Sequence record: OR352956.1
Length of the DNA stretch: 64,000 nt
Source of the DNA: Escherichia phage AV126
Strand: one strand, 5' to 3'
Each line of letters begins with the position of its first letter. Within the stretch, counting starts at the first letter, position 1. The position numbers and the translations under genes were made by a program. The notes under the pieces were generated by a model, which worked only from the letters and a program-made list of their open reading frames with translations, had not been told where the DNA came from and did not search any database. Positions 2,281-64,000 of the stretch are shown piece by piece.

Positions 2281-2281
2281 T

Positions 2282-2787: not shown

Positions 2788-2797
2788 GGTGAAACAA

Positions 2798-3396: not shown

Positions 3397-3402
3397 AAAG
3401 TA

Positions 3403-3430: not shown

Positions 3431-3477
3431 TTACCACGTAGGGCGGCAATGGTGCCGCCGATAATGAGGAAAGTAAA

Positions 3478-3777
3478 ATGGAAACTATCGCTATTGTTAC
3501 CGTAGAAAAACTGGTTGTTGGTGATGTATTCGCGTTAATGGTGCCTAACAGCAGCAAGCTGGGCGCTTATGAAGTAATGGATCATAAAAATGAATCATTT
3601 GGCGACGGTTGCACAATGGCGGTAAAATCTTTAAAGGATGGAATCATCCGCCAGGCTAACTGGCACAAAGGGAATCAAGTCGGTTTAATATCAGCTAATT
3701 TCTTGCCAGAAGAGCAAACGTTAGACCAACTATCAGGCGGTAAGACGTTAGCCGAACTACTGGAAACAGCGATCTAA
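3478..3777 (+). CDS. hypothetical protein (99 aa)
   Basis: ORF with SD-like motif after promoter and leader hairpin. Confidence 0.55.
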   Translation: METIAIVTVEKLVVGDVFALMVPNSSKLGAYEVMDHKNESFGDGCTMAVKSLKDGIIRQANWHKGNQVGLISANFLPEEQTLDQLSGGKTLAELLETAI

Positions 3778-3821
3778 TCAACAAAGGGGCGGCAACGCCC
3801 CACATCAGAAAGGAAAAGATT

Positions 3822-4058
3822 ATGAGTATTGCAACAGTATTAAACGCCGTTAAAACCGCTGAATCATCCGGCTTGCATGTTGAGCTTATAGATCAACCAG
3901 GTGGCGATCTCCTTGTCCAGGTTTACCCGCCGAAAGTAGGGGATGATTATTATTGGGCTTATTCTGATACGTTCGAACAAGTAGACACGAAAGCGATCAC
4001 GGCTTTTATTTTAAAAGCTATTGAAGAAAATAACTTTCATCATAACATCAATCAATAA
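3822..4058 (+). CDS. hypothetical protein (78 aa)
   Basis: ORF with AGGAAA SD-like motif; preceded by GGGGCGGCAACGCCCC hairpin. Confidence 0.5.
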   Translation: MSIATVLNAVKTAESSGLHVELIDQPGGDLLVQVYPPKVGDDYYWAYSDTFEQVDTKAITAFILKAIEENNFHHNINQ

Positions 4059-4112
4059 ACCATAAGCGGGGCGGTAACGCCCCATTAAACGCAATAGGAA
4101 GAGGATAGACGC

Positions 4113-4403
4113 ATGAAAAAGATGATCGCAGTAGTTGCCCTGGTTGTTGGTATTAACGCGCCTGTACTGGCTAATGAGTTGCCAGAATCCATCACGCTAA
4201 CCGATATCAACGCAATAAACCGGATCGGCGTTAATTATCGCCTATGCCTTGCCGCTAAAACTTTCCAGGACGGCACGACAGAATACCACGGATTCGAGGG
4301 TATCCGCTGCGGTGAGCTTGCACGCGACCTTAAGGAAGATCCAGACCTTGAGGCCATACCGATGACCGTAAACGGTAAAGCTTACGTAAACCGCCAACAA
4401 TGA
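4113..4403 (+). CDS. hypothetical secreted protein (N-terminal signal peptide)
   Basis: MKKMIAVVALVVGINAPVLA hydrophobic leader with Ala-x-Ala-like cleavage context. Confidence 0.5.
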   Translation: MKKMIAVVALVVGINAPVLANELPESITLTDINAINRIGVNYRLCLAAKTFQDGTTEYHGFEGIRCGELARDLKEDPDLEAIPMTVNGKAYVNRQQ

Positions 4404-4534
4404 GAAAGATAATCATCACAATGGGGATCGTAGTAGCAACGCTGGCGCTTATCCCCTTCATGGTTGAACATGTGCTGATCAGTGTTGTCCTTGTAGTCAG
4501 TGACCTATTGGAAACGGTTGGCAACTGGTTTTAA
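4400..4534 (+). CDS. hypothetical small membrane peptide (44 aa)
   Basis: short hydrophobic ORF, ATGA-coupled to the upstream gene. Confidence 0.35.
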   Translation: MRKIIITMGIVVATLALIPFMVEHVLISVVLVVSDLLETVGNWF

Positions 4535-4787
4535 GATAAATAAACAGGGCTTGTTTTTGTCCTGTTTTTTGTTATACTTATTGAACGGGCGGCACTTGGG
4601 AGCAGGTGAAGATAATCACCGGAAGATCCCGCTATATATCGATAGCTAATACCTATCAAACAACAAAACATCAAAGAGATAAACTATCAAATCTTTACAA
4701 TCCTACCTATTGACACCGGATCACGCTTACATTATTATTTATCACGTAGGGCGAGCAATACAGCAAGCCCACAAAGAGGAAAAGAAG

Positions 4788-5156
4788 ATGAGCAAATCAG
4801 CAATTAAAGCAGTTGAAAAAGCGCAAGAAGTGATCGCAACGTCAACCACTGGCGCAAAGGTTAATCTCGTTGGTTATCTGACAGATGAAGCTATCCGTAA
4901 AAATTGGCGTAATGCTGATTTACTGGCTTGCTTATTGATTAATAGTGTCGCTAATGCTTTCCAGTGTGAAACAGCCGAGAGCCTGGAGGAAAACTTGTTT
5001 GATAATATGGATCAAGCCATTGAAACCTATATACAATCAAACCTGGATAGCTGGAACAGTAAGACATGGCCTGACAGCTTACGCGATACAACTGATCAAC
5101 TGATCCGCCTTGCCCTGATGGTTGAACGCGATAACGTTCACAACCGCACAAAGTAA
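4788..5156 (+). CDS. hypothetical protein
   Basis: ORF 4710..5156 trimmed to ATG at 4788 after promoter, hairpin and AGAGGA motif. Confidence 0.5.
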   Translation: MSKSAIKAVEKAQEVIATSTTGAKVNLVGYLTDEAIRKNWRNADLLACLLINSVANAFQCETAESLEENLFDNMDQAIETYIQSNLDSWNSKTWPDSLRDTTDQLIRLALMVERDNVHNRTK

Positions 5157-35045: not shown

Positions 35046-35804
35046 TTAAATAAACACTTCAGTAATCAGTTTAGACAAACGTCCACGTTTATTATCGTCC
35101 GTTGTCAGTTCAACATATCCAATAAAATCTACAATTGGCTCACGAACACCTTCTTCATTTTCTGGATATAAAAGTTCCAAAATTTGATGCAGACCATTGC
35201 TACGTTTTTTAATTGCATATGTCTGGCGAACATCACCTAATACAATAACATGCGTATTAATACCTGCACGTTCAATAAGAAGTTTAAGTGTTTCTGTTGA
35301 CATAAGTTGTGCTTCGTCAATAATGACAATTGTATTATCCAGGGTAGCTCCCAACAAATAGTTAGGAATATTCAATTCGATCTTACCTGATCCAATATCG
35401 TTTTCCAATTTGTTGGCTGTCATGAATTGCTGGAAAATACGTTTTGTAGATTCATAGTGTGCTGCTAGTTTATCTGTTTTATCCCCAGACAAGAAACCAA
35501 TCTGGTCATCTCCGACTTCAGTAGGGTTTTTGATAAAAAGTAGTTTACGGAAGTCTCCTGAACGAAGCATCTGCAAAGCTTTCCATAAAGCAACAGAGGT
35601 TTTACCAGTCCCTGCCGGAGCATTTACAACAGTCAGATCATTCCAAATCATGCTTTGAACAATCTTATTTTGGTCCCCTTCAGGCATAAATTCATCTAAA
35701 CGGTAATCGTCATTACCTACCGCTTTTGCTGCATAACGGCTTTCAATCTTTGCTGAATTAGCCAGTTTCTGCCGTTGTGTTTTAGCTGCGGTTTTATTTC
35801 CCAT
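35046..35804 (-). CDS. phoH: PhoH-like ATPase
   Basis: Walker A GTGKTSVAL and Walker B IIDEAQ; start trimmed to ATG at 35804 with AAGGAG SD. Confidence 0.8.
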   Translation of the reverse strand: MGNKTAAKTQRQKLANSAKIESRYAAKAVGNDDYRLDEFMPEGDQNKIVQSMIWNDLTVVNAPAGTGKTSVALWKALQMLRSGDFRKLLFIKNPTEVGDDQIGFLSGDKTDKLAAHYESTKRIFQQFMTANKLENDIGSGKIELNIPNYLLGATLDNTIVIIDEAQLMSTETLKLLIERAGINTHVIVLGDVRQTYAIKKRSNGLHQILELLYPENEEGVREPIVDFIGYVELTTDDNKRGRLSKLITEVFI

Positions 35805-35841
35805 AGTAGCACTCCTTTTAGAAGGGGCCGAAGCCCCTTTA

Positions 35842-36342
35842 TTAGTTGTAAGCATCTAAAGTTCCAGAAGTCAGAACTTTAATTACTCGTTCAGCACGGT
35901 TTGGCGTCTGGCTATACCATCGGCTTTTACGCATGTTTTTACCTGCTTGAGTATAATATGCATTGCTGATTAAAGTCAAGCTATTTTGAAACCCTTCAGC
36001 ACCTTTTAACCCCAACTGGAAAACCATGTTGATTATTCCCAATTTACGAGTATCACTCACCTTATCATAGATTGGTGATAAGATAGCACTGTTTTTTATG
36101 TCTCTCTTCACTTTTGCAACATCGTCAGCAAAGATTTGACGGGCTTCTTTTTCTGTGATAACTCCATTGGTCTTACGACCAAGGAGATTATCTAAGATTT
36201 GAATAGCCTTTGCTTTATCTTTTATTTTAGTCAGAAGGTGTCCTATGCCGACTGTCCAATAACCAAGATGGTCTTGATAAACAGTAAGCTTCAGTCCTTC
36301 ATCGACTCGTAGCATATCAAACTCATCTACTACTTTAGCCAT
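35842..36342 (-). CDS. T4-type lysozyme (glycoside hydrolase family 24 endolysin)
   Basis: near-collinear match to the T4 lysozyme sequence, including EGLKLTVYQD, YWTVGIGHLL and WYSQTPNRAERVI. Confidence 0.9.
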   Translation of the reverse strand: MAKVVDEFDMLRVDEGLKLTVYQDHLGYWTVGIGHLLTKIKDKAKAIQILDNLLGRKTNGVITEKEARQIFADDVAKVKRDIKNSAILSPIYDKVSDTRKLGIINMVFQLGLKGAEGFQNSLTLISNAYYTQAGKNMRKSRWYSQTPNRAERVIKVLTSGTLDAYN

Positions 36343-40675: not shown

Positions 40676-40884
40676 TATTCCTCCTTAATTATTTCAAATT
40701 TGGCAACACCATTTACAATAATATGACCACAAGACATAACTCCTAGCCAAGGATCGCCGTTTTTCTTCAGGCGTTTACCGAATACATCACAAAAACCATT
40801 CTTCATTTCAGAGGCTTCATAAGAAGCCCCTTTATCAAAAACGTCTTTGAATGTGTCGATTATACCAACACATTTCAAAATCAT
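40675..40884 (-). CDS. hypothetical protein (69 aa)
   Basis: coupled to nrdB. Confidence 0.45.
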   Translation of the reverse strand: MILKCVGIIDTFKDVFDKGASYEASEMKNGFCDVFGKRLKKNGDPWLGVMSCGHIIVNGVAKFEIIKEE

Positions 40885-41969
40885 TCGAAGTCAAGCTCCT
40901 CATCATCAGAGAGATCTTTGTTAGCTGAATTCAATTTGTAATTAGTTAACTGAATCTCTTGGGCTGCTGACTGAATCAAATCAGGATTCAACCATTTTTC
41001 CATCCAAGCTAAAGGACTGTGTTTAGGTGCTTTAAACTTGGCTTTCATTTTCAATCGACGATAAATAGGAGCAGCATTGAAATAAACCCACTGTTTAGAC
41101 AATTCGGCGTTAAGACCTACAATAAAACGACCTTCACTAAACAGGTAGTCACACCACTGTTCCTCTTGTTCAACAACAGTGTCGAGGATCAAAGTCAACT
41201 CTTCAATATTGTCTTCGTAAATTTTACGCCAAATTGGGTCATGCATCAATGCATCAATTACAGCATAATCCATCTTAACATGCAAGATTTCATCTAGCAT
41301 AATTTTCTGGATCAGTTTACAAGCTCCAACAAACAGTTGTTGTTCTGCCATAGCAAAAGTAGCAGAGAAGGAAGATATAAACTGGATACCTTCTAACCCA
41401 ATCAGGGCTACCATCCCTTTAAGAATCAGCAATCGAAGTTCATCGTTAGCTTCAATCAATCCTAGAGCATACTTATGACCAGCTTCTTCCAACTGACCCA
41501 TGATATCAGCAATGATACCCATACGATTGAAAATTTTATCATTAACCATAATCTGATTGATGACTTCAATTGGATCTGGAGTACATTGACGGATTATTTC
41601 AGAATACGTTAACGCATGGAGAACTTCCATTTCACTCTGCTTCATCATCATAGCACAGGCTTCATTGTTACTCAAGAATGGAGAGAACAAAGTGATGATT
41701 GATTTTGCAAGAGAATCATTTTCCCATTGGAACGATAAGTTTTTAATCATAACATCATAGTTGTTTTTAGAACAAGCTACGAAATCTTTACGTGTCTGAT
41801 CTAGATTAACTTCGTTTTCATCCCAATCTTGTGCTTTTTGAAGTTTGTAGAGTTTGTGCATTTCTGGATAAGTTACGTTAACAGAATCAAAGATCCCTAA
41901 TTGCTCCCCCAAAAATACTGGATATTTTCCTGTTTTGTAAACTTCATTGTGTAAATTAATTGCTGCCAT
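40881..41969 (-). CDS. nrdB: ribonucleotide reductase small subunit (class Ia beta)
   Basis: di-iron ligand motifs EGIQFISSF and DEILH; size ~360 aa. Confidence 0.85.
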   Translation of the reverse strand: MAAINLHNEVYKTGKYPVFLGEQLGIFDSVNVTYPEMHKLYKLQKAQDWDENEVNLDQTRKDFVACSKNNYDVMIKNLSFQWENDSLAKSIITLFSPFLSNNEACAMMMKQSEMEVLHALTYSEIIRQCTPDPIEVINQIMVNDKIFNRMGIIADIMGQLEEAGHKYALGLIEANDELRLLILKGMVALIGLEGIQFISSFSATFAMAEQQLFVGACKLIQKIMLDEILHVKMDYAVIDALMHDPIWRKIYEDNIEELTLILDTVVEQEEQWCDYLFSEGRFIVGLNAELSKQWVYFNAAPIYRRLKMKAKFKAPKHSPLAWMEKWLNPDLIQSAAQEIQLTNYKLNSANKDLSDDEELDFE

Positions 41970-42680: not shown

Positions 42681-44924
42681 CTACATTTTACAGGCACTAC
42701 ACCCTTCGTCTTCAGAATCTTCTTGTGCTAAAGAATCTGCTGATTTTGTTCTACTGTTAAGGTAATACAATGACTTACCACCCAGTCTAGCAAAATTCAG
42801 AATAAACTGCATCTCAGCTTTCACTGATAAACGTCCACCTACCAATTTAGAATAATCTAGCCAAGAATCACAAGAAATTCCTTGGTCCGTAAACTTGGTA
42901 AAGATACCATACATTTCTGCAAGATCTTTAGCCGGAGTGTCCCAGGCAGACTGGTAGAACATTTTCAGTTTTTCATAATCTGGAACAATAAATAATACGC
43001 TACCTTTCTGACTTTGTTTATACATAATAGTATCACGAACAGGGTACAGAGAGTTAGTAGTATTGCTTACCAAACTGCTGGACTCATTAGGTGCAATAGC
43101 AGCCAAGACACTGTTACGGATACCACCTTGTTCAATGATTTCAGCACGTAAGCCTTCCCAGTCCATTTTAAGATCAAAATTACCGATACTATCTACTGTT
43201 TTAGCATAAGTGTCAATTGGTAGCCAACCTTGAGGCCATTTGGTCTTATCGATCCATTCTGCATTACCTTTTTCCTTAGCCAGACGCAGAGAGGCTTTTG
43301 CCAACCAAAAGTAATGACGTTCTGCAAGTTCATGCATTAATTTTTTAGCATAAGCATCTGAATAATTTACAAAATTACTTGCCAAATAATGCGCTAAGTT
43401 TGTAATACCTACACCAATAGATCTACGTGCTTTAGCAGTTATTTCGTTATGTTTAAATGGATAATCCATTGTTTCAATAACGTTGTCAATTGTCAATACA
43501 GTGTAGTATGCAACATCCTCATATTCTTCAGGTAAGACACGACCAGCGACAATAGAAGATAAGAAGCATAAAGCCAATTCTTGATCTTCTGTATTCTCAC
43601 CAGTAAAGAGATCCGGCATACTGTGGAAAGCTTTAGTTGGTAAGAAGATCTCTTGACACAGGTTTGATTGATACACCGTATCCAGGAAAGGTGTATGGTT
43701 GTTAACGTTGTCAGCAAAGAACATGTAAATACGTCCTGTTTCTGCACGTTGAACAATAATCTCTGTCAGAAGATCACGAGCCTTAACAAATTTTTTCTTA
43801 ATGCGACGACGGCTTACTTTGTCATAAACTGCATCAAACTCTTCTTCACTTTTATACAAGGCTTCATAAAGTTCAGGAGCATCATCACAACTAACTAACA
43901 TCCAGTCTTCGTTTTTTGCTGCTCGACGCAAGAACGAACGGTTAACAACAATAGAATAATCTAGTTTGTCTACTCGTTTATCTATAGGTGTTGTTGGATT
44001 CTTCAGTCGAATCAGATCGTCGAAGTCTGGTTCAAGTATGGTAAAGGTAACTGTAGCACTACCTCCACGGCTTGCTTGCTTCGAAGCTCCAACACTATCT
44101 TCCATCCATTTCAGATATGGAAGAAGACCACCATGAATAATACGATTATTCTTAACACCTTGACCTGTGGCACGAGTTTGAAGATTAACACCAATACCTG
44201 CGTTATTCAACGTATACTCATGAGCTAAGTAATTAGCAATGGCTAAAGACTCTGCCGTATCGTCTGCACGGAACAAACAACAAGACGCACTTCCTTTGAT
44301 TGGAGTTCGTAGAGTTGTCAGATACGGCGATGGCAGATTAATCTTGAGATCGCTAACATAAGTATAAAGTTTTTTAATATCTTCTATACGGCGTTCTTTT
44401 GGTTGGATCTCCATAACCTTCATTGCGATACCAATGAAAAGAAACTGTGGAGACTCATGCACCACATCGTTTACTGCATCTCGAATAAGATATTTATCTA
44501 CCATCTGACGTAAAACAGAATAACCATAAGTTAGATTTTTATTATGCTTTACAATCTTACCGATTTCTTTGATCTCTTCATCAGTATAATCCATTTTAGC
44601 CCAATGTCCACGTTCTACCATATCATGATAAAAGGTATTCAGTGAAGGGATACTGTGGTATCCCCCATGAGCCTGTTTGTAAATCATACCCAGAAGAAGT
44701 CTTCCTGCCATATCACTGTAAGCTTGTGTTTTCTTGTCAATACACGCTGCAATCATTGCTTTATGCAGATCACGTGTAGACACACCGTCATAACACCGCT
44801 TCACAGCTTCTAATTCAATTTCAGACCAGTTTAGTTTACCTGCTGCAAATTCAGACCACTTGCGAAGTTTTTCTGGATTAAACTCCTCTGTCTTACCATT
44901 AGATTTAGTTACAAAACGAATCAA
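42681..44924 (-). CDS. nrdA: ribonucleotide reductase large subunit (class Ia alpha)
   Basis: N-terminal ATP-cone, ~750 aa, adjacent to nrdB. Confidence 0.9.
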   Translation of the reverse strand: MIRFVTKSNGKTEEFNPEKLRKWSEFAAGKLNWSEIELEAVKRCYDGVSTRDLHKAMIAACIDKKTQAYSDMAGRLLLGMIYKQAHGGYHSIPSLNTFYHDMVERGHWAKMDYTDEEIKEIGKIVKHNKNLTYGYSVLRQMVDKYLIRDAVNDVVHESPQFLFIGIAMKVMEIQPKERRIEDIKKLYTYVSDLKINLPSPYLTTLRTPIKGSASCCLFRADDTAESLAIANYLAHEYTLNNAGIGVNLQTRATGQGVKNNRIIHGGLLPYLKWMEDSVGASKQASRGGSATVTFTILEPDFDDLIRLKNPTTPIDKRVDKLDYSIVVNRSFLRRAAKNEDWMLVSCDDAPELYEALYKSEEEFDAVYDKVSRRRIKKKFVKARDLLTEIIVQRAETGRIYMFFADNVNNHTPFLDTVYQSNLCQEIFLPTKAFHSMPDLFTGENTEDQELALCFLSSIVAGRVLPEEYEDVAYYTVLTIDNVIETMDYPFKHNEITAKARRSIGVGITNLAHYLASNFVNYSDAYAKKLMHELAERHYFWLAKASLRLAKEKGNAEWIDKTKWPQGWLPIDTYAKTVDSIGNFDLKMDWEGLRAEIIEQGGIRNSVLAAIAPNESSSLVSNTTNSLYPVRDTIMYKQSQKGSVLFIVPDYEKLKMFYQSAWDTPAKDLAEMYGIFTKFTDQGISCDSWLDYSKLVGGRLSVKAEMQFILNFARLGGKSLYYLNSRTKSADSLAQEDSEDEGCSACKM

Positions 44925-53220: not shown

Positions 53221-54348
53221 TTACTCTGCTGGTTCCCAAGTGCCTGGGATCATTTCTCGAATACGAACACCAACAGGTTTTGTTGGAATACCTTCATCTG
53301 AAAATTCTTCATACTCTATTTCAACGAACTGATTAATCAAGGTAGAAGCATTCTCTGCTTTACGATAATTGATAGTCTCATGAGCATCTTTACGCATTAA
53401 GAATTCGACTACTTTACCATTTTCCATCTCACCTGTCAACACTCCATCGCCATTTTTATCGCTTTTTGAATTTGTTACTTTAACTTCAAGGGTATGGCGA
53501 GGCTTACGTTTAATAACATCATAAGAACGTTTATCAAATTCGTAAACTCCGTGAGCATTACGATATACTACACCTTCAGCTTTCTCAAGTAAAGCTTTTT
53601 CATAGAAAGCATTAAACTGTTCTTGGTTTTCAATATACTCTGTATGAACTACACAAATAAGCTCGTCAAGACCATAATCTTCAACTACGGCCTTAAGAGC
53701 AGCAAGAGCATCAACACGTTTTTCAAACGGTAGACCTGGAACTGGAATATCGTATACGTAATAATTCAGCAAAGGTGTATTTGCATTATGCTTCTTCCAA
53801 GCACTGTTAATTTGTTGCAGACTAAGGACGCCTAACCCAGCAAACACTTCACCATCAAGAGGATGACCAACAACTTCACTAATAAAGTTTGGAATACCTT
53901 TCCAATGAGGTGGCAGGTTATACACTTCCCCAGCTTTTGATAAACACTCCCCTTTCATGTTAATCATAGAACGTAACCCGTTCAGTTTGTATTGTGCATA
54001 ACCAGGGAACACAACCTTTTCAGGATAATCTTTATAATCCTGGCATTTCATTGGTGTGGAAGGAACATGGTTTTCAGCTTCTTCTTTTGTTTTATAATAG
54101 CCATTCTTTAACTGTTTTGTCCATTTGGCAAAAGCTTCAAGTTCAGCTTGTTCTTCCGGTGTTGTTTCATTGGAACGACCAATGTTTTTTGCTTCTGCTG
54201 TATAAGATTTTTCTGTGATTTTTCCACCTACCCTTCCATGAGCTACAGTAACAACTGCACCATCTGTATACACTGTCCACTGTTTAAGTTTTCCTTTTGA
54301 ATCTTTACCATACAGCGTTTGATTTGTTTGTTGCATTAGTCCTCCCAT
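53221..54348 (-). CDS. ATP-dependent DNA ligase-like nucleotidyltransferase
   Basis: motif I KLNGLR (Asn at the usual Asp position), motif III HPLDGEVF, motif IV EGVVYR, motif V DVIKRKP in canonical order. Confidence 0.6.
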   Translation of the reverse strand: MGGLMQQTNQTLYGKDSKGKLKQWTVYTDGAVVTVAHGRVGGKITEKSYTAEAKNIGRSNETTPEEQAELEAFAKWTKQLKNGYYKTKEEAENHVPSTPMKCQDYKDYPEKVVFPGYAQYKLNGLRSMINMKGECLSKAGEVYNLPPHWKGIPNFISEVVGHPLDGEVFAGLGVLSLQQINSAWKKHNANTPLLNYYVYDIPVPGLPFEKRVDALAALKAVVEDYGLDELICVVHTEYIENQEQFNAFYEKALLEKAEGVVYRNAHGVYEFDKRSYDVIKRKPRHTLEVKVTNSKSDKNGDGVLTGEMENGKVVEFLMRKDAHETINYRKAENASTLINQFVEIEYEEFSDEGIPTKPVGVRIREMIPGTWEPAE

Positions 54349-59753: not shown

Positions 59754-60002
59754 ATGTCTCTATTAGAAAAACACGTGTTTGAAGATGGTAACGGCAATGC
59801 AGTTTTTCTTTTCCATCCAGAAAAATACACATCTGAAAACAATGGTACAACTTCTATTGTAATCACTAAAGATGTTAAAGTTATTGATTTCTTGGCTCTG
59901 ATGCGAGAGATGGATCTTGAAATTAATACTTTTAACGCAGAAGCTTTGGTTGTTGCTCTTCTGGAAAAGAAAGATAGTGAAGAAGTAGCAGAATATGCTT
60001 AA
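59754..60002 (+). CDS. hypothetical protein
   Basis: ORF 59688..60002 trimmed to ATG at 59754 with AGGAGGA SD. Confidence 0.45.
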   Translation: MSLLEKHVFEDGNGNAVFLFHPEKYTSENNGTTSIVITKDVKVIDFLALMREMDLEINTFNAEALVVALLEKKDSEEVAEYA

Positions 60003-60248
60003 ATAACTATTGACAAACGTATCCTTCATATGTTAGGATACGTTCATCAAGTGTGGTAACAGGGTCGTTGACTTTTGTTAAGAGGGGCTTGCACTGCGGT
60101 AGTGTTAGAGACTACTTCTTCAGAGGTTAGCTACCAAAGAGGAAAAGGAATAGTCTCGGCTCAAGAACTTTTACGCTGAAAGTTGGGCTTGGTCTTAGAG
60201 AATGTAGCGGTTCTCTACAATCGTCAGCGTCTCTGTTACCACATTTAT

Positions 60249-60323
60249 GGCCCTGTAGCTCAATGGGAGAGCTGTCGGCTCATAACCGATAGGTAGCTGG
60301 ATCGAAACCAGCCAGGGCCACCA
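60249..60323 (+). tRNA. tRNA with CAT anticodon (Met or lysidine-Ile2 type)
   Basis: cloverleaf folded by eye: acceptor GGCCCTG/CAGGGCC, anticodon loop CTCATAA, T-arm GCTGG-ATCGAAA-CCAGC, CCA encoded. Confidence 0.7.
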
Positions 60324-60325
60324 AC

Positions 60326-60400
60326 GTCTTTATGGTGTAATGGATAGCACAGGAGTCTTCTAAACTCTTAGTCAAGGTTCGATTCCTTGTAAAGACACCA
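60326..60400 (+). tRNA. tRNA-Arg (TCT)
   Basis: acceptor GTCTTTA/TAAAGAC, anticodon loop CTTCTAA, T-loop TTCGATT, CCA encoded. Confidence 0.7.
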
Positions 60401-60645
60401 GAACATTTTAACATGAATTAGCTCAAGTGATTTGAACCCACTACTGATCATGGTGGCAGAGAATGAGGCAAGTATGTCAGACATTATAAACAAAGGCCAC
60501 GGTTATATTAGAAGACATAAATGCTCGAAGAGCACCGTTCGTGGAGAACGGGGGTTGGTGGAGTCACCATTCATGGTAAAATGTTTTAAAAAACTATTGA
60601 CAACAAACATTATTTTATGTTAGATTATAAGTATGGAAGGGCAAA

Positions 60646-60727
60646 TCGACGTGGCGACGAAAACGGTCTTGAAAACCGCCGAGCTTGAAAGAGCCTTGGG
60701 AGTTCGACTCTCCCTCCTTCAGCCAGA
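60646..60727 (+). tRNA. tRNA-like element, possibly degenerate tRNA-Ser (TGA)
   Basis: canonical T-arm GGGAG-TTCGACT-CTCCC and candidate anticodon loop CTTGAAA, but imperfect acceptor and D arms; promoter-like TTGACA at 60597. Confidence 0.3.
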
Positions 60728-60729
60728 TT

Positions 60730-60815
60730 AGGTAGATTGGTGAAATGGTAGCCACGACAGTTTGCTAAACTGTAGTCGGAAACGGCGTGTAGGTTCGAGT
60801 CCTACATCTACCGCC
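60730..60815 (+). tRNA. tRNA-Ser (GCT)
   Basis: acceptor GGTAGAT/ATCTACC, anticodon loop TTGCTAA, long variable arm, G discriminator, CCA encoded. Confidence 0.7.
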
Positions 60816-60946
60816 AAGTTCTTTTTAATGTAGCTTACTTTAGCAGAGTAAATCTTCGGCAAGTGGCGGTAACCACTTTACCGATAACTCATAGTTAGTG
60901 GTGCGAACACTGGCTATTTTAAAAAGAATTTAAATATTAGTATTTA

Positions 60947-61034
60947 GGTGAGTTAATTCCGTAGGGGTAGCGGGGCAGACTGTAAATCTGTTATCATTGC
61001 GATTCGGGTGGTTCGACTCCATCACTCACCACCA
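60947..61034 (+). tRNA. tRNA-Tyr (GTA)
   Basis: acceptor GGTGAGT/ACTCACC, anticodon loop CTGTAAA, long variable arm, T-loop TTCGACT. Confidence 0.7.
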
Positions 61035-61040
61035 AATTAA

Positions 61041-61126
61041 GATGAGTTGGCTGAATGGTTTAAGCGGCGGACTGTTAATCCGTGTTCGAAAGAACAATAT
61101 AGGTTCGAATCCTATACTCATCGCCA
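61041..61126 (+). tRNA. type-II (long variable arm) tRNA with GTT (Asn) anticodon
   Basis: perfect acceptor GATGAGT/ACTCATC, Ser-like D arm, anticodon arm GCGGA-CTGTTAA-TCCGT, variable hairpin GTTC-GAAA-GAAC, T-arm ATAGG-TTCGAAT-CCTAT, G discriminator. Confidence 0.55.
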
Positions 61127-61133
61127 GAATTAT

Positions 61134-61211
61134 GGACTTGTAGAGTTAAGGTAAACCCCCCAGTCGCCAATAGGCTTCTGGAATTGCAGGTATCGAATCC
61201 TGCCGAGTCCC
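61134..61211 (+). ncRNA. tRNA-like element, unresolved
   Basis: 7-bp acceptor-like pairing GGACTTG/CGAGTCC and T-arm-like GCAGG...CCTGC but no canonical anticodon arm found by eye. Confidence 0.25.
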
Positions 61212-61217
61212 AGCATT

Positions 61218-61292
61218 GCTCCTATAGTATAATGGCTATTACAACGGTTTTGTAATCCGTGGATCTCTGTTCGATTCAGTGTGGGAGCACCA
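61218..61292 (+). tRNA. tRNA-Thr (TGT)
   Basis: acceptor GCTCCTA/TGGGAGC, anticodon loop TTTGTAA (one mismatch in anticodon stem), CCA encoded. Confidence 0.55.
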
Positions 61293-61565
61293 ACACAACA
61301 TTAAGAGCACTGTGATTGATCGTCGTATCCTGTGCACAAGGTCTGCTCGAAAGACAGTGTTCTTAGTATTGTGTTGATCACAAAAAGAGTCACCCGAAAC
61401 TTGACCGGAGTAGGGTTGGATGGGGAAAAATGAGAAGCGGCTCTCCCATTGACAGCAACGAAGAATAATATTTGACTTTGGTTTTGTATTATTTTAAGTT
61501 AGCTTACCGAACGTAGGGCTAGTCACCCAACGGGATACTCGTCACTGTCCCAATCAATAAAAGTC

Positions 61566-61595
61566 TTGACAACAAATAGTAAAATGTAGTATAGT
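61566..61595 (+). promoter_or_regulatory. sigma70-like promoter (TTGACA - 18 nt - TATAGT) driving the downstream tRNA group
   Basis: consensus -35 and near-consensus -10 about 11 nt upstream of tRNA-Gly. Confidence 0.6.
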
Positions 61596-61606
61596 AAATA
61601 TATAGG

Positions 61607-61680
61607 GCGTTCTTGGTGTAGCGGTAGCATTCCGTCCTTCCAAGTCGGCGGCACGAGTTCGATCCTCGTAGAACGCTCCA
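61607..61680 (+). tRNA. tRNA-Gly (TCC)
   Basis: acceptor GCGTTCT/AGAACGC, anticodon loop CTTCCAA, U discriminator, CCA encoded. Confidence 0.65.
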
Positions 61681-61778
61681 AATTATTTAATAAAGGGTTG
61701 CCAGAAAACTTTCTCTTTTACTCATGGTTTTCTCCTTCTCTCACACTTCTTCTGGTTGCCCTTCATTAAATGATTTAT

Positions 61779-61854
61779 TGGTTTGTAGTGTAGTCCGGTA
61801 GCACACGACACTTTGACTGTCGTAGGTTTGGTTCAAATCCAGACAGACCAGCCA
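61779..61854 (+). tRNA. tRNA-Gln (TTG)
   Basis: acceptor TGGTTTG/CAGACCA with U1-A72, anticodon stem CGACA/TGTCG, loop CTTTGAC, G discriminator. Confidence 0.7.
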
Positions 61855-61859
61855 TATAA

Positions 61860-61936
61860 CGGAATTTAGCTCAGTTTGGTAGAGCATACGCTTTGGGAGC
61901 GTAGGGTCGCAGGTTCGAATCCTGCAATTCCGACCA
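61860..61936 (+). tRNA. tRNA-Pro (TGG)
   Basis: acceptor CGGAATT/AATTCCG, D arm GCTC-AGTTTGGTA-GAGC, anticodon loop TTTGGGA, T-loop TTCGAAT. Confidence 0.75.
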
Positions 61937-61942
61937 ATTTAA

Positions 61943-62016
61943 TGTTTCGTAGTTCAATGGTAGAACCCACGACTGATAATCGTGAGACACAAGTTCGATT
62001 CTTGTCGAAACAACCA
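61943..62016 (+). tRNA. tRNA-Ile (GAT)
   Basis: acceptor TGTTTCG/CGAAACA, anticodon stem CACGA/TCGTG, loop CTGATAA, T-loop TTCGATT. Confidence 0.75.
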
Positions 62017-62018
62017 GT

Positions 62019-62091
62019 TTCCCGTTAGACTTACAGGATAAGAGTTCCACAGCTTATTGTGATGCTGGTTCGAATCCAGCACGGGATACCC
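62019..62091 (+). ncRNA. tRNA-like element, anticodon unresolved
   Basis: canonical T-arm GCTGG-TTCGAAT-CCAGC and acceptor-like TTCCCGT/ACGGGAT, but D and anticodon arms could not be folded by eye. Confidence 0.3.
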
Positions 62092-62094
62092 AAT

Positions 62095-62174
62095 AGCGGG
62101 ATAGAGGAGTCTGGTCGTCCTCGCCAGTTTCATATGCTGGAGATCATCGGTTCGAATCCGATTCCCGCCTCCAA
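62095..62174 (+). tRNA. tRNA-Met (CAT), 1:72 mismatch
   Basis: acceptor AGCGGGA/TCCCGCC with unpaired A1/C72, anticodon stem CCAGT/GCTGG, loop TTCATAT, T-loop TTCGAAT. Confidence 0.6.
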
Positions 62175-62288
62175 ATATCGCTTGCCAGCGGTATCTTTGA
62201 AGACCTTGCCTGGTTCCTTCTAAGATGGAGGGGTGCGACTCCTTAACGCACAATTATAATAAAGCATTTCAACTTAACAGTATTTATT

Positions 62289-62313
62289 AGCCTCCTTATT
62301 GGAGGCTTTTTGC
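62289..62313 (+). terminator. rho-independent terminator closing the tRNA cluster
   Basis: AGCCTCC-TTAT-TGGAGGCT hairpin plus TTTTTG. Confidence 0.65.
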
Positions 62314-62330
62314 TATCTATTGAATAAAAC

Positions 62331-62360
62331 TTGACTTATTATTTTTTATATGTTAAGATA
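62331..62360 (+). promoter_or_regulatory. sigma70-like promoter (TTGACT - 18 nt - TAAGAT)
   Basis: -35/-10-like hexamers upstream of gene 62381. Confidence 0.5.
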
Positions 62361-62380
62361 AAGTTTAGGAGGATTTTATT

Positions 62381-62677
62381 ATGCCTAAACTAAAACGTGG
62401 TCGTGGAAGACCAACAGCCGAAATGCAACAGATTTACGCAATGGATGCGGCGCAAGCAAGTGTAAAAGAATTATTTGCAGAGCATTATTTAGAAGCTATG
62501 CGGTATATTGTTGAACTTGTTAATGATAAGGATGCAGCAAAACCTCTCCGCTTCCAAGCAGCTAAAGCTATTAAAGAGCAAGTAGAAGAATGGTTAGAAG
62601 AACATTATGAAGCTATGGAAGAAGAAACTCCTGCCGTGCAGAATACAGATGACGTTCCTAAAAAGATCGTAATCTAA
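62381..62677 (+). CDS. hypothetical DNA-binding protein (AT-hook-like KRGRGRP)
   Basis: AGGAGGA SD; N-terminal KLKRGRGRPT motif; acidic C-terminal half. Confidence 0.5.
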   Translation: MPKLKRGRGRPTAEMQQIYAMDAAQASVKELFAEHYLEAMRYIVELVNDKDAAKPLRFQAAKAIKEQVEEWLEEHYEAMEEETPAVQNTDDVPKKIVI

Positions 62678-62724
62678 TCCCTCTCCTCTCTTGGGGCTTT
62701 GCCCCTCCTCCTTGTTATTTTTAA

Positions 62725-62757
62725 CACCCCTCTCCGAAAGGTTAGGGGCTTTTTTAT
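62725..62757 (+). terminator. putative intrinsic terminator
   Basis: CCCCTCTCCGAAAGGTTAGGGG hairpin followed by CTTTTTTATTTT. Confidence 0.5.
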
Positions 62758-62816
62758 TTTAATGCTTGCAATTGTATATCCTTTTGTGATAAGATCAGAT
62801 ATGAGGAGGATAAAAT

Positions 62817-62987
62817 ATGCGCAATTTTGTAGTTAAAAATGATTTTAACCGTTCTTCTTATCATAAAGATAAAAAGAATGATTACACACGGGCTTGGAAC
62901 TTGGAGGAAGAACTTTATGATGACAGAGAAGACGTGGGAAGAGATCCTAGCGGAGGCTCAACCAATGGAAGTGAAGAAGATAGTTAA
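62817..62987 (+). CDS. hypothetical small protein (56 aa)
   Basis: strong GAGGAGGA SD 7 nt upstream of ATG; overlaps track ORF 62839..63054 in another frame. Confidence 0.35.
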   Translation: MRNFVVKNDFNRSSYHKDKKNDYTRAWNLEEELYDDREDVGRDPSGGSTNGSEEDS

Positions 62988-63037
62988 TAATGCCCCTTCT
63001 CTTCCTAAAATAAAATTTTATGAGGAAGCAGAAGATA

Positions 63038-63430
63038 ATGAATCTAAAGACTAAAACTGTATTAGGTTTTGTTTTAATTGTTGTTCTTATTCTTACCGGA
63101 ATGTTTGCTTATAACAAGATACGTGAGTCTGGCTACAAAGATGGTGTTGCCTATCAAACGCAATTATATCAAGCAGCCCAAGCAAAAGCAAAACAGGATT
63201 TTGATGTTCTTCAAAAAAGAGCCGATGAAGAAAGAGCATTATTAAATACCCAAATAAACAACTTGTCTAAAAACAATGCACAATTAAAAGCAGATTTAGA
63301 GAAGAAGAAACAAACGATCAATGAGGATACAACGAATTATGCAAAAACTAATTCTGGCAGTATGTCTTGCTTTGCCCCTAATGATGACGGGTTGTTCATC
63401 ATCAACAAAAGTTTCCCCAGTTCTTATTGA
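63038..63430 (+). CDS. inner-membrane spanin (i-spanin, Rz-like)
   Basis: N-terminal TM helix VLGFVLIVVLILTGMF followed by coiled-coil-like Gln/Lys-rich domain; overlaps the o-spanin-like gene. Confidence 0.55.
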   Translation: MNLKTKTVLGFVLIVVLILTGMFAYNKIRESGYKDGVAYQTQLYQAAQAKAKQDFDVLQKRADEERALLNTQINNLSKNNAQLKADLEKKKQTINEDTTNYAKTNSGSMSCFAPNDDGLFIINKSFPSSY

Positions 63431-63665
63431 TGAGTGTAAGGCTGTAGCCATAGAAAAGGTTAAAGGTCCAGATTCAGACTTGATGGATAAAGTATCGACA
63501 CCTGTGCCATACACTAAAAATCAAATTGCAAAAGGGGTCAGTAGATCTGAAGTTGTTAACAATCAAACTCAAAACAACGCTCTTTGGGAGCAAGATAGAC
63601 GAAAGGTTTTAGGTTTACAAACATATATTAAAACACTGCAAGAAAAAGGTATTATTGCTGAATAA
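63339..63665 (+). CDS. outer-membrane lipoprotein spanin (o-spanin, Rz1-like)
   Basis: signal peptide with lipobox-like LMMTGC; starts inside the i-spanin gene in a different frame. Confidence 0.55.
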   Translation: MQKLILAVCLALPLMMTGCSSSTKVSPVLIDECKAVAIEKVKGPDSDLMDKVSTPVPYTKNQIAKGVSRSEVVNNQTQNNALWEQDRRKVLGLQTYIKTLQEKGIIAE

Positions 63666-63674
63666 GGAGGGAAT

Positions 63675-64000
63675 GTGGCAAAGAAAAAGGCAGCAGGTAG
63701 TTTAGCTGGAGTAGATATTGAAGTAAAGGCTCAACCAGGTAAACAGACTCTTGCAATGGATTTAATGCCAGAAGTTATGATTTATGGTGGTGCCGCTGGG
63801 TGTGTTTCTGCCGAAACAGAATATCTTACAAAAGATGGTTGGAGACAGATTAGTGAATATTCAGGAGAGGATATTTACCAATACAACCCTAAGAATAAGC
63901 GTTTAGAATTGGTAACACCTTATTTTGTAGAATACGATTTAAATGGAGATAACCTATACAGAATAACAAATGGTGTAGGATTGTTCCAAGAACTTAGTAT
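63675..64000 (+). CDS. P-loop protein, 5' fragment, with intein-like block after GGAAG (truncated by window end)
   Basis: AAGGAGGG SD then GTG; MIYGGAAG immediately followed by CVSAETEYLTKDGW, which resembles an intein N-terminal splice block. Confidence 0.4.
   Translation, partial: MAKKKAAGSLAGVDIEVKAQPGKQTLAMDLMPEVMIYGGAAGCVSAETEYLTKDGWRQISEYSGEDIYQYNPKNKRLELVTPYFVEYDLNGDNLYRITNGVGLFQELS

What the first reader, a model, noticed from the sequence alone, without database searches (positions are those of the whole stretch)
63675..64000. Possible intein inserted in the P-loop of a late-gene ATPase (truncated at window end)
The last ORF begins with a sequence leading into MIYGGAAG, the first half of a Walker A motif, which is followed directly by CVSAETEYLTKDGW instead of the expected GK[ST]. 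A Cys at the junction followed by this pattern resembles an intein N-terminal splice block, and P-loops are classic intein insertion sites. The gene follows the spanin pair, so it may be a packaging or replication ATPase.
Basis: inference. Interest (0 to 1): 0.45.

Follow-up and report, generated by a model that had tools for sequence, protein, structure and literature searches.

The report
Mini-intein splitting the terminase P-loop
The last gene in the window is a coliphage DNA-packaging ATPase (large terminase) whose ATP-binding loop is interrupted by a small self-splicing protein element (a 159-residue mini-intein), a known kind of element that database annotations and the standard intein models searched here do not flag in this phage group.

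Summary
The window comes from a Phapecoctavirus (phAPEC8-like coliphage). The ORF starting at GTG 63675 is the large terminase subunit (TerL), cut off by the window end at codon 108. In genomes whose first 108 residues are identical, the gene encodes 691 aa. Residues 43-201 are an in-frame 159-aa insert between G42 and S202.

Removing the insert restores the Walker A motif GGAAG|SGKS and a full-length Terminase_6N match. More distant TerL homologues have the uninterrupted loop.

The insert is a HINT-domain mini-intein:
- It has Cys1, an SxxH block B, a C-terminal Asn and Ser at +1.
- A profile built only from non-TerL relatives hits it at E = 1e-18 to 1e-23.
- The family profile finds one solved protein, the AceL NrdHF intein (6ZGQ).
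- An AlphaFold model matches only inteins and HINT domains in the PDB.

Relatives carrying a homing endonuclease sit at the same P-loop position in other ATPases. The endonuclease has been lost here, and no closely related phage genome searched has an uninterrupted junction.

Two features are unusual. The penultimate residue is Gly rather than His (T-G-N). An invariant Cys sits at the position I read as block F:4, as in class 3 inteins, yet Cys1 is also invariant. The splicing route is therefore open. This is a new, unannotated member of a known kind.

The parts
63664..63670 (+). Shine-Dalgarno sequence AAGGAGG, 4 nt upstream of the GTG start of terL
   Evidence: Read directly from the sequence.
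63675..63800 (+). N-extein of the large terminase subunit (TerL residues 1-42), ending in MIYGGAAG
   Evidence: Translation. Identical to the annotated TerL of 64 Phapecoctavirus records. After in-silico splicing, Pfam Terminase_6N profile positions 1-7 map here.
63786..63800 (+). First half of Walker A (G38-G-A-A-G42). The second half (SGKS) lies 159 codons downstream, outside the window.
   Evidence: Intein-less homologues read IYGGSAGSGKS, LYGGAAGSGKT and VIGGAAGSGKS without interruption.
63801..64000 (+). N-terminal 66 residues (plus 2 nt) of the 159-aa mini-intein. Cys1 is at 63801-63803 and block A is CVSAETEYLTKDGW. The window ends at L65-S66 (63993-63998), the start of block B (LSMEH).
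   Evidence: Non-TerL family profile E=1.9e-18. Family profile versus PDB 6ZGQ intein E=7e-7. hhalign to the gp41-1 intein places C1 on C1 and SxxH on SxxH.
63038..63430 (+). i-spanin (context: the lysis genes immediately upstream)
   Evidence: ORF listing. Annotated Rz-like spanin / i-spanin in ukendt and the BASEL phages.
63339..63665 (+). o-spanin (context). It overlaps the i-spanin in another frame and carries the signal/lipobox ...ALPLMMTGC.
   Evidence: ORF listing. Annotated o-spanin in BASEL relatives.

Best explanation
The ORF is terL, the large terminase (DNA-packaging ATPase-nuclease) of a Phapecoctavirus. It is translated as a precursor of about 79 kDa and 691 aa. In the precursor, a 159-aa HINT-domain mini-intein (precursor residues 43-201) sits inside the Walker A P-loop, between G42 and S202.

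Proposed mechanism. The intein folds and excises itself, joining G42 to S202. This rebuilds GGAAGSGKS and yields a mature TerL of about 60 kDa (532 aa) plus a free intein of about 18.6 kDa. Until splicing happens the ATP-binding loop does not exist, so packaging activity depends on splicing.

Likely catalytic residues (intein numbering):
- Cys1
- Ser66 and His69 (block B, SxxH)
- Arg70 (B:11), probably replacing the missing penultimate His, as shown for the AceL NrdHF intein
- Cys138 (read as block F:4)
- Thr157-Gly158-Asn159 (block G)
- Ser+1

Proposed chemistry. A thioester forms at the N-junction, on Cys1 and/or Cys138. The acyl group transfers to Ser+1. Asn159 cyclises to release the intein. 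An O-to-N shift then forms the peptide bond.

History. The element belongs to a large family that usually carries a LAGLIDADG-like homing endonuclease and targets the G|[S/T/C]GK[S/T] step of P-loops. Here the endonuclease has been deleted. Every close relative found carries the intein, and it is inherited vertically with terL.

Shown: the gene's identity, the exact insertion point, homology to inteins, the fold, conservation of the catalytic positions, and loss of the endonuclease. Inferred: that splicing actually occurs, and which cysteine starts it.
For: (1) Identity and boundaries. The full gene in ukendt has C43...T-G-N201|S202. Pfam Terminase_6N matches the precursor only from S202, at profile position 8 (62.7 bits). 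After in-silico excision it matches profile positions 1-214 (69.6 bits).

(2) Empty sites. Vibrio phage K406 (56% identical over the query), Kolesnikvirus SB18 and Vequintavirus MaxTheCat have an uninterrupted GG[SA]AGSGK[ST].

(3) Homology to inteins.
- The family profile hits a single solved protein, the 6ZGQ AceL NrdHF intein, at E=2e-6 and 7e-7, in register from residue 6 through block B.
- hhalign to the gp41-1 intein gives probability 72% and E=3e-5, with C1 on C1, S66xxH69 on S60xxH63 and F71 on F65.
- A profile of 47 non-TerL members hits ukendt TerL in two pieces, 24-131 (5.5e-23) and 161-208 (4.5e-16), skipping the endonuclease columns.

(4) Fold. The AlphaFold2 model of the 77%-identical orthologue has pLDDT 71 and pTM 0.67 and is all-beta plus one helix. 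All 50 listed Foldseek PDB hits are inteins, HINT or BIL domains; the best is 6ZGQ at E=4e-6, TM 0.56-0.62.

(5) Same element in unrelated exteins at the same P-loop step. It occurs in Avunavirus 18-1-2 TerL, Pseudomonas KIL4 primase-helicase, Enterocloster phage DnaB-like helicase and Acinetobacter P577 PhoH. These copies are 317-330 aa with an extra middle domain. It also occurs in RecD2-like, SNF2, DnaC and other proteins.

(6) Conservation. In 124 representatives Cys1, His B:10, Tyr-Cys (block F) and the terminal Asn are invariant. Gly-1, Thr G:5, Gly G:6 and the +2/+3 G-K are at least 90% conserved.

(7) Selection. Between Phapecoctavirus and Justusliebigvirus the intein is 87.3% identical, with 56 synonymous and 20 non-synonymous codon changes. 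The C-extein is 87.1% identical with 193 and 63.

(8) Necessity. The TerL query matched a single place in each close-relative genome listed. No close relative has an uninterrupted junction: 0 of 130 records.

(9) Precedent. T-G-N|S, Ser B:7, Arg B:11 and Cys at F:4 with Pro four residues later are the features of the experimentally splicing AceL NrdHF intein (PMC7891396).
Against: - No experiment or proteomic datum shows the spliced product.
- No Pfam or NCBIfam intein model matches the insert or the four phage-borne relatives scanned, even at E<=10 for the insert and E<=1 for the relatives. No intein-fold model appeared among the 25 most-matched Pfam families in 48 further family members.
- The penultimate His, usually important for Asn cyclisation, is Gly. 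The block F:13 His also seems absent.
- The C-terminal half could not be aligned by sequence to any solved intein. The F:4 assignment of Cys138 therefore rests on motif spacing and on the fold.
- The structural model is of moderate confidence (pLDDT 71; the other four models scored 45-49) and was made for a 77%-identical orthologue.
- 93 of the 159 intein residues lie outside the window and are inferred from near-identical genomes.
Confidence: 0.92

Rival explanations
1. It is an intein, but it splices by the class 3 route. Cys138 (block F:4), not Cys1, attacks the N-terminal junction and forms a block-F branched thioester. The acyl group then passes to Ser+1. Cys1 would be dispensable, or would serve another role such as a redox switch or a back-up nucleophile.
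For: - The only solved homologue found by sequence, and the best structural match, is AceL NrdHF, a proven class 3 intein. It has the same Ser B:7, His B:10, Arg B:11, non-Trp B:12, Cys F:4 with Pro at +4, and T-G-N|S (PMC7891396).
- The block F Cys is invariant and Thr G:5 is at least 90% conserved across 124 representatives.
- The habitat matches that described for class 3 inteins: P-loops of DnaB, SNF2, RecD-like helicases and TerL, phage-borne, mostly with Ser or Thr at +1 (PMC2807308).
- WCT inteins beginning with Ser1 or Cys1 are on record.
Against: - Cys1 is present at all 166 N-termini in the best 150 representatives and is an invariant column. That argues it is used.
- Class 3 is defined by the absence of an N-terminal nucleophile.
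- Trp B:12 is absent (Phe or Val).
- Class 1 inteins with Cys at F:4 are known and were reported to be polyphyletic, lying outside the class 3 clade (PMC3196547).
- Many family members have Cys at +1.
Confidence: 0.35
2. The insert is a decayed, non-splicing HINT-derived domain that stays in the mature terminase as a permanent insertion, or it merely cleaves like a bacterial intein-like (BIL) domain.
For: - No standard intein HMM recognises it.
- The penultimate His is missing.
- The homing endonuclease is gone, and the element is fixed in the clade with no empty-site allele. A domesticated insert would also look like this.
- BIL domains are among the structural hits.
Against: - The insert separates GGAAG from SGKS, so an unspliced protein has no Walker A loop. 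TerL is essential, and the query matched a single place in each close-relative genome listed.
- Every residue needed for splicing is conserved: Cys1, SxxH, terminal Asn and the +1 Ser.
- The same T-G-N|S architecture splices efficiently in AceL NrdHF.
- BILs lack the +1 nucleophile, which is present here.
- Cleavage without ligation would leave a 42-residue fragment carrying half of the P-loop.
Confidence: 0.04
3. The interruption is removed at the nucleic-acid level (a group I/II intron or another mobile DNA insert), or it is an assembly or annotation artefact fusing two genes.
For: - Phages of this group carry introns and homing endonucleases (BASEL table S5).
- The Pseudomonas phage KIL4 record annotates its helicase as a two-piece join across the related element.
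Against: - The insert is in frame with no stop across 159 codons.
- It is present in 133 independent phage records.
- It evolves under protein-level purifying selection like its exteins: 56 synonymous and 20 non-synonymous codon changes.
- It has protein homology and fold similarity to inteins.
- Its boundaries fall exactly at Cys1 and Asn|Ser.
Confidence: 0.01

Closest known systems
AceL NrdHF split class 3 intein (PDB 6ZGQ; Hoffmann et al. 2021, PMC7891396)
   Same: It is the only solved protein found by the family profile (E about 1e-6) and the best fold match. It shares the unusual active-site set: Ser at B:7, His B:10, Arg B:11, a non-Trp B:12, Cys in block F followed by Pro four residues later, and a T-G-N|Ser C-terminal junction without the penultimate His. 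It is probably phage-borne.
   Different: AceL NrdHF starts with Ala1 (obligate class 3), is naturally split, and sits in a ribonucleotide reductase beta subunit. The TerL element starts with an invariant Cys1, is contiguous, and sits in a P-loop. Sequence similarity is detectable only in the N-terminal half.
Mycobacteriophage TerL P-loop inteins (TerL1-a and TerL1-b; Kelley et al. 2016, PMC5050341)
   Same: These are inteins inside the Walker A loop of the terminase ATPase domain. Splicing is required to form the active site. They are phage-borne and were shown experimentally to splice.
   Different: The terminase family differs: Terminase_1 there, Terminase_6N here. In that study Terminase_6-type TerL carried inteins only at the C-motif. 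The 'classic' P-loop site described there for TerL1-a is between Lys and Thr; here the site is two residues earlier, G|SGKS. No sequence similarity between the inteins was detected.
Full-length members of the same intein family with a LAGLIDADG-like middle domain (Avunavirus 18-1-2 TerL, Pseudomonas phage KIL4 primase-helicase, Enterocloster phage CB457P1 DnaB-like helicase, Acinetobacter phage P577 PhoH, many RecD2-like helicases)
   Same: They share blocks A, B, F and G (29-34% identity over the splicing domain), the same G|[S/T]GK[S/T] insertion step, Cys1, the YCF motif and the TGN end.
   Different: They are 317-330 aa, with an additional domain of about 170 aa that is deleted in the Phapecoctavirus/Justusliebigvirus TerL element. 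They are therefore probably still mobile, whereas this one is not.
Canonical class 1 mini-inteins (gp41-1, Ssp DnaB mini, Npu DnaE)
   Same: HINT fold, Cys1, block B S/TxxH, terminal Asn, a +1 nucleophile and a size of 125-160 aa. hhalign aligns the N-terminal half to gp41-1, and Foldseek hits all of them.
   Different: They have Asp at F:4 and a penultimate His. This family has Cys and Gly at those positions. Class 1 inteins with Cys at F:4 have been noted before (PMC3196547).

Membership tests
Intein (self-splicing HINT domain) | In-frame insertion in a conserved motif of a host protein that is absent from homologues; removing it restores the motif | tested here: met
   The 159-aa insert lies between G42 and S202. 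Excision restores GGAAGSGKS and a full Terminase_6N match at profile positions 1-214. K406, SB18 and MaxTheCat TerL are uninterrupted.
Intein (self-splicing HINT domain) | HINT fold | tested here: met
   AlphaFold2 model of the 77%-identical orthologue: pLDDT 71, pTM 0.67. All 50 listed Foldseek PDB hits are inteins, Hedgehog or BIL domains, with 6ZGQ best at E=4e-6. Model confidence is moderate.
Intein (self-splicing HINT domain) | Block A N-terminal nucleophile (Cys/Ser/Thr at position 1) | tested here: met
   Cys43 of the precursor, codon TGT at 63801-63803. It is invariant in 166 of 166 family N-termini.
Intein (self-splicing HINT domain) | Block B T/SxxH | tested here: met
   S66-M-E-H69. 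It aligns to S65/H68 of AceL NrdHF and to S60/H63 of gp41-1. His is invariant. Only L65-S66 lie inside the window.
Intein (self-splicing HINT domain) | C-terminal Asn followed by a Cys/Ser/Thr +1 extein nucleophile | tested here: met
   N201|S202 in ukendt. Asn is invariant across the family, and +1 is S, T or C. This lies outside the window.
Intein (self-splicing HINT domain) | Penultimate His (block G:6) | tested here: not met
   Gly158 (T-G-N). This feature is common but not obligatory. AceL NrdHF also has Gly here and splices, with Arg B:11 compensating. This family mostly has Arg at B:11.
Intein (self-splicing HINT domain) | Match to curated intein HMMs (Pfam Intein_splicing/Hint families, NCBIfam TIGR01445/TIGR01443) | tested here: not met
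   No hit for the insert at E<=10, or for four long relatives at E<=1. No intein-fold model appeared among the 25 most-matched Pfam families in 48 members. This reflects model coverage; it is not a defining feature of inteins.
Intein (self-splicing HINT domain) | Demonstrated protein splicing (ligated exteins plus free intein) | not testable with these tools
   Needs expression, western blot or MS. Predicted masses are 78.7 kDa giving 60.1 + 18.6 kDa.
Class 3 inteins | No Cys/Ser/Thr nucleophile at intein position 1 | tested here: not met
   Cys1 is invariant. Definitions are in PMC7891396 and PMC2807308.
Class 3 inteins | WCT triplet: Trp B:12, Cys F:4, Thr G:5 | tested here: inconclusive
   Phe71 at B:12 (aligned to gp41-1 F65), Cys138 at the inferred F:4, and Thr157 at G:5. 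This is an F-C-T triplet, comparable to the M-C-T of AceL NrdHF. The F:4 assignment rests on spacing and fold, not on a residue-level alignment.
Class 3 inteins | Block-F branched thioester intermediate; Cys F:4 obligatory | not testable with these tools
   Requires C1A and C138A mutants and trapping of the intermediate.
Large terminase subunit, Terminase_6 type | N-terminal ATPase domain (Pfam Terminase_6N above its gathering score) with Walker A | tested here: met
   62.7 bits for the precursor and 69.6 bits for the spliced form, against a cutoff of 22.
Large terminase subunit, Terminase_6 type | C-terminal RNase H-like nuclease domain | tested here: inconclusive
   Terminase_6C at E=0.0016, 18.9 bits, below the 22.6 cutoff. 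TIGR01630 at 23.6 bits, below 41.65. The gene lies next to the portal gene.
Homing (LAGLIDADG) intein | Endonuclease domain between blocks B and F | tested here: not met
   The element is 159 aa. The alignment to relatives of 317-330 aa shows a deletion of about 170 aa. It is a mini-intein.

The most novel reading that the evidence does not exclude
The TerL element belongs to a large, mostly phage-borne, P-loop-targeting intein family: at least 1,612 representative clusters at E<=1e-10. The family keeps both the class 1 nucleophile (Cys1) and the class 3 hallmarks (Cys F:4, Thr G:5, no penultimate His). Its nearest solved relative is a proven class 3 intein.

The most novel reading is that this family is the extant 'Cys1-retaining' sister or progenitor lineage of class 3 inteins, as Tori and Perler postulated for a phage intein that later lost its N-terminal nucleophile. 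Under that reading it splices through Cys F:4, or through a Cys1-to-Cys F:4 thioester relay, possibly gated by a Cys1-Cys138 disulfide. That would couple DNA packaging to the redox state of the infected cell.
Probability: 0.25. Interest if true: 0.6.

Novelty: new member of a known kind. Interest (0 to 1): 0.4.

Why it matters
Practical consequences:
- The terminase of more than 130 sequenced phAPEC8- and phi92-like coliphages, many proposed for therapy, is annotated as a plain 691-694-aa protein. The active enzyme should be 532 aa, and it exists only after protein splicing. This affects annotation, TerL-based phylogeny and typing (the intein should be removed first), structure prediction and recombinant expression.
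- Even a study that set out to list inteins counted none in a phage whose TerL carries this element (BASEL table S5, phage EmilieFrey). A 2024 paper states that coliphage inteins are unreported (PMC11162368).
- The element shows that curated intein HMMs miss a family with thousands of members.

Scientific and applied interest:
- The family combines Cys1 with the class 3-type Cys at F:4 and a T-G-N end. It offers a compact, E. coli-compatible 159-aa test case for how class 1 and class 3 splicing relate.
- It is a candidate small intein for protein engineering, with Ser at +1 and tolerance of glycine-rich flanks.

Tried and rejected
- Pfam and NCBIfam scans found no intein model. I scanned the window fragment, the full precursor, the isolated insert and four long relatives.
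- A single-sequence phmmer search of the insert against PDB sequences gave only chance hits, the best a portal protein at E=0.05. Only the family profile reached an intein.
- A profile of the C-terminal 37-39 residues against PDB, and hhalign against the gp41-1 C-fragment, gave nothing. Cys138 = F:4 therefore stays an inference.
- The word-indexed protein search found only 5 and then 20 proteins, mostly fragments, which wrongly suggested a tiny family. The exhaustive HMMER search found 7,396.
- The MAFFT alignment of whole fragments (A4) misaligned C-terminal fragments onto the N-extein P-loop and was discarded. Trimmed alignments A5 and A6 were used instead.
- The search for an empty-site allele among close relatives found none: 0 of 130 records span the spliced junction. 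The nearest uninterrupted TerL is Vibrio phage K406, at 56% identity over the query.
- Tori & Perler 2011 (J Bacteriol 193:2035), the key paper on class 3 inteins with Ser1/Cys1, is not held. Its content is cited only through other papers.
- I considered and rejected an intron, an assembly artefact, a BIL domain and a retained non-splicing domain (see the rival explanations).
Full report
**1. Observation**

Window 63675-64000 (+) is an open frame with no stop. It starts at GTG 63675, 4 nt after a strong AAGGAGG site. That site overlaps the stop codon of the upstream o-spanin ORF. The frame reads ...QPGKQTLAMDLMPEVMIYGGAAG-CVSAETEYLTKDGWRQISEY...QELS and runs off the window end at codon 108. 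GGAAG is encoded at 63786-63800 and the Cys codon at 63801-63803.

**2. Origin of the window and identity of the gene**

Megablast of 60000-64000 finds 296 phage records. The best are Phapecoctavirus (phAPEC8-like, Stephanstirmvirinae) coliphages at 98-99% identity. The 108-aa fragment is 100% identical to the N-terminus of the annotated 'terminase large subunit' in 64 records.

In Escherichia phage ukendt (NC_052661) the gene is 2076 nt and encodes 691 aa. It follows the spanin pair and precedes the portal gene. Its first 326 nt differ from the window at 7 positions, none of which changes an amino acid. I used this gene as the continuation of the window ORF.

**3. The insert and its exact borders**

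The full protein reads ...MIYGGAAG|C43VSAETEYL...FRRGDHCFVTGN201|S202GKSRLLLLK....

- On the precursor, Pfam Terminase_6N matches from residue 202 only, beginning at profile position 8 (62.7 bits).
- After residues 43-201 are deleted in silico, the match covers profile positions 1-214 (69.6 bits). Terminase_3, AAA_25 and Terminase_6C then also appear weakly.
- Three more distant TerL proteins carry an uninterrupted loop: Vibrio phage K406 (56% identical over the query; IYGGSAGSGKS), Kolesnikvirus SB18 (LYGGAAGSGKT) and Vequintavirus MaxTheCat (VIGGAAGSGKS).

The insert therefore sits between the fourth and fifth residues of the Walker A octet G-A-A-G|S-G-K-S.

**4. Evidence that the insert is an intein**

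Curated models are silent. No Pfam or NCBIfam intein family hits the insert, even at E<=10. A single-sequence search of PDB sequences gives only noise. The case rests on other evidence.

(a) *Relatives in other host proteins.* tblastn finds weak two-piece matches inside unrelated proteins. Reading them shows the same element at the same step of the P-loop:

| Host protein | N-terminal junction | C-terminal junction |
|---|---|---|
| Avunavirus 18-1-2 TerL | GGAAG\|CLSKDHEVL | VVTGN\|SGKS |
| Pseudomonas phage KIL4 primase-helicase | GSASG\|CVDKDTEYL | FITGN\|TGKS |
| Enterocloster phage CB457P1 DnaB-like helicase | GGSG\|CVDSETEYF | FITGN\|SGKT |
| Acinetobacter phage P577 PhoH | GFAG\|CVDADTEFL | FVTGN\|TSKT |

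These copies are 317-330 aa. In the alignment the Phapecoctavirus element matches their first 107 or so residues and their last 50 or so, and it lacks a middle domain of about 170 aa. That domain gives weak LAGLIDADG_3 matches in some family members.

(b) *Link to solved inteins.* A profile of the seven sequences hits exactly one solved protein, the AceL NrdHF intein 6ZGQ, at E=2e-6 (7e-7 after the endonuclease columns are trimmed). The match is in register from residue 6 through block B. hhalign to the class 1 intein gp41-1 aligns Cys1 with Cys1, S66xxH69 with S60xxH63 and F71 with F65, at probability 72% and E=3e-5. I recalled the gp41-1 sequence from memory. Its numbering agrees with the residue numbers given in PMC7664689.

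(c) *Independent profile.* A profile built from 47 representatives in other host proteins, with no TerL among them, hits the window ORF at E=1.9e-18. It hits the full ukendt TerL in two pieces, residues 24-131 (5.5e-23) and 161-208 (4.5e-16), skipping the endonuclease columns.

(d) *Fold.* An AlphaFold2 model was made for the 77%-identical metagenomic orthologue P0001, using an 18-row alignment. It has pLDDT 71 and pTM 0.67 and is all-beta with one helix. In Foldseek against the PDB, all 50 listed hits are inteins, Hedgehog or BIL HINT domains. The best is 6ZGQ at E=4e-6, TM 0.56-0.62.

(e) *Catalytic positions.* These are Cys1, Ser66/His69, Asn159 and Ser+1. Across 124 representatives Cys1, His B:10, Tyr-Cys in block F and the terminal Asn are invariant. 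Gly-1, Thr G:5, Gly G:6 and the +2/+3 Gly-Lys are at least 90% conserved.

**5. Evolutionary state**

The mini-intein occurs in 133 phage records: Phapecoctavirus, Justusliebigvirus/phi92, Klebsiella FKP3 and Citrobacter Tr1. No close relative has an uninterrupted junction; 0 of 130 records span it.

Between ukendt and EmilieFrey the intein is 87.3% identical, with 56 synonymous and 20 non-synonymous codon differences. The C-extein is 87.1% identical, with 193 and 63. The element has therefore co-diverged with terL under purifying selection.

This is the expected end state of the homing cycle: the element becomes fixed and then loses its endonuclease. The TerL query matched a single place in each close-relative genome listed. 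An unspliced protein would have no P-loop, so splicing must occur. That last step is inference.

**6. The family at large**

An exhaustive HMMER search of 1.84 billion representative proteins finds 7,396 hits at E<=1e-3, 1,612 at E<=1e-10 and 389 at E<=1e-30.

- In the best 150, all 166 N-termini begin with Cys. Most of the listed C-termini read [IV]TGN followed by S, C or T, and a YC[FV] motif lies about 21 residues upstream.
- Among 48 sampled members the hosts are mainly RecD2-like helicases (26-28). DnaB-like and Toprim primase-helicases, SNF2, pol III delta' and ribonucleotide reductase also occur. No HINT-domain Pfam model appears among the 25 most-matched families shown.
- Metagenomic fragments add PhoH, DnaC, RecA and an ABC-like ATPase. 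They also include S-adenosylmethionine synthetase, interrupted at GAF|SGKD.

**7. Mechanism**

Hoffmann et al. (PMC7891396) showed that AceL NrdHF splices within minutes. It has Ala1, Ser65 (B:7), His68 (B:10), Arg69 (B:11), Met70 (B:12), Cys124 (F:4), Pro128-Gly129, and Thr144-Gly145-Asn146|Ser. Splicing there goes through Cys124 (class 3), and Arg69 partly compensates for the missing His.

The TerL element has Ser66, His69, Arg70, Phe71, Cys138, Pro142 and Thr157-Gly158-Asn159|Ser. The spacing is nearly the same: Cys to Asn is 21 residues against 22, and Pro lies four residues after Cys in both. It differs in having an invariant Cys1.

- Class 3 is defined by the absence of an N-terminal nucleophile.
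- Class 1 inteins with Cys at F:4 are known and were reported as polyphyletic.
- Three WCT inteins with Ser1 or Cys1 were noted by Tori et al..

I therefore call this a class 1-type intein by sequence definition, with class 3-like active-site furniture. I put about 0.35 on Cys138 being the initiating nucleophile. The F:4 assignment of Cys138 is inferred from spacing and fold. The C-terminal half could not be aligned by sequence to a solved intein.

**8. Comparison with what is known, and novelty**

Inteins in terminase P-loops are well established:
- Kelley et al. 2016 describe mycobacteriophage TerL1-a and TerL1-b.
- Tori et al. 2010 note that class 3 inteins live in the P-loops of DnaB, RecG, SNF2 and TerL.
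- Hoffmann et al. mention an AceL TerL intein characterised earlier from the same lake.

What is new is this instance.
- It lies in a Terminase_6N-type TerL, at the G|SGKS step.
- All the GenBank and RefSeq records I inspected annotate a plain TerL or a hypothetical protein.
- The BASEL study states that it identified inteins precisely, yet it lists 0 inteins for phage EmilieFrey, whose TerL carries the element.
- None of the 39 papers in the library that match at least two of the four search terms (intein, Phapecoctavirus, Justusliebigvirus, Stephanstirmvirinae) reports an intein in TerL.
- One 2024 paper says coliphage inteins are unreported.

The kind is known, so I rate the finding a new member of a known kind, of moderate interest.

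**9. Verdict**

- Confidence that this is a splicing mini-intein in the TerL P-loop: about 0.92.
- The splicing route (Cys1 versus Cys138) is open and can be tested with a handful of mutants.

Noticed in passing
window 60249-62173 (+): A cluster of 10 tRNA genes (Met, Arg, Ser, Asn, Thr, Gly, Gln, Pro, Ile, Met) lies about 1.5 kb upstream of the spanin/terminase genes. The same cluster is annotated in ukendt.
   Followed up: no
window 63321-63665 (+): The o-spanin ORF carries a signal/lipobox-like N-terminus (MQKLILAVCLALPLMMTGC) if it starts at ATG 63339. The RefSeq annotation of ukendt starts it at the equivalent of 63381, which would remove most of the signal peptide. This is probably a mis-called start.
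   Followed up: partly
window 42681-44924 (-), 40881-41969 (-), 53221-54348 (-): These are the only three ORFs of 350 aa or more in the 64 kb. They encode a class I ribonucleotide reductase large subunit (with ATP-cone), the RNR small subunit and an ATP-dependent DNA ligase. Their Pfam matches are continuous, with no sign of an intein, although RNR is a common intein host.
   Followed up: partly
window 35049-35855 (-): This ORF weakly matches the helicase/AAA extein part of the RecD2-based profile (E=0.0015...VIIDEAQLMS...VLGDVRQ). It is probably a PhoH/RecD-like P-loop ATPase. No intein is present.
   Followed up: no
L008 (Escherichia phage 18-1-2, OK136180) 2411-5156: This Avunavirus TerL carries a full-length (329-aa) member of the same intein family at the identical P-loop site. 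In addition, the gene is annotated as two TerL CDSs (2411-3757 and 3997-4413) followed by an HNH homing endonuclease. That suggests a second intervening element or a disrupted gene.
   Followed up: no
P0015, P0019 (metagenomic proteins): Family members are inserted in S-adenosylmethionine synthetase at GAF|SGKDPTKVDRS. This is not a Walker A loop, but it shares the S-G-K step. The homing site may be recognised through the DNA that encodes [ST]GK.
   Followed up: no
P0021-P0030, P0036, P0041, P0044, P0055: Several representative proteins contain two copies of this intein family, seen as four matched stretches. Some second copies lie at non-P-loop sites and are followed by sequences such as CGAGVGTTL, CGFGGRML or CDxxAA.
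   Followed up: no
L007 (Pseudomonas phage KIL4, KU130129) 1430-4231: The primase/helicase CDS is annotated as a two-piece join across the related intein, and the neighbouring DNA polymerase is also a two-piece join. The depositors apparently treated protein-level elements as spliced at the nucleic-acid level.
   Followed up: no
records MG065639, MG065645, MG065650 etc.; OP562383: Records named 'Campylobacter phage' (A150, A145, B15 and others) and 'Acinetobacter phage vB_AbaM_ABPW7' are 98-100% identical to E. coli Phapecoctavirus/Justusliebigvirus genomes in this region. The host labels look doubtful.
   Followed up: no
L001 5127-5603 (intein) versus the rest of terL: The intein DNA is somewhat more AT-rich than the C-extein: 34.4% against 38.6% GC, and GC3 of 27.0% against 29.5%. 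The difference is small, consistent with long residence in the genome.
   Followed up: partly
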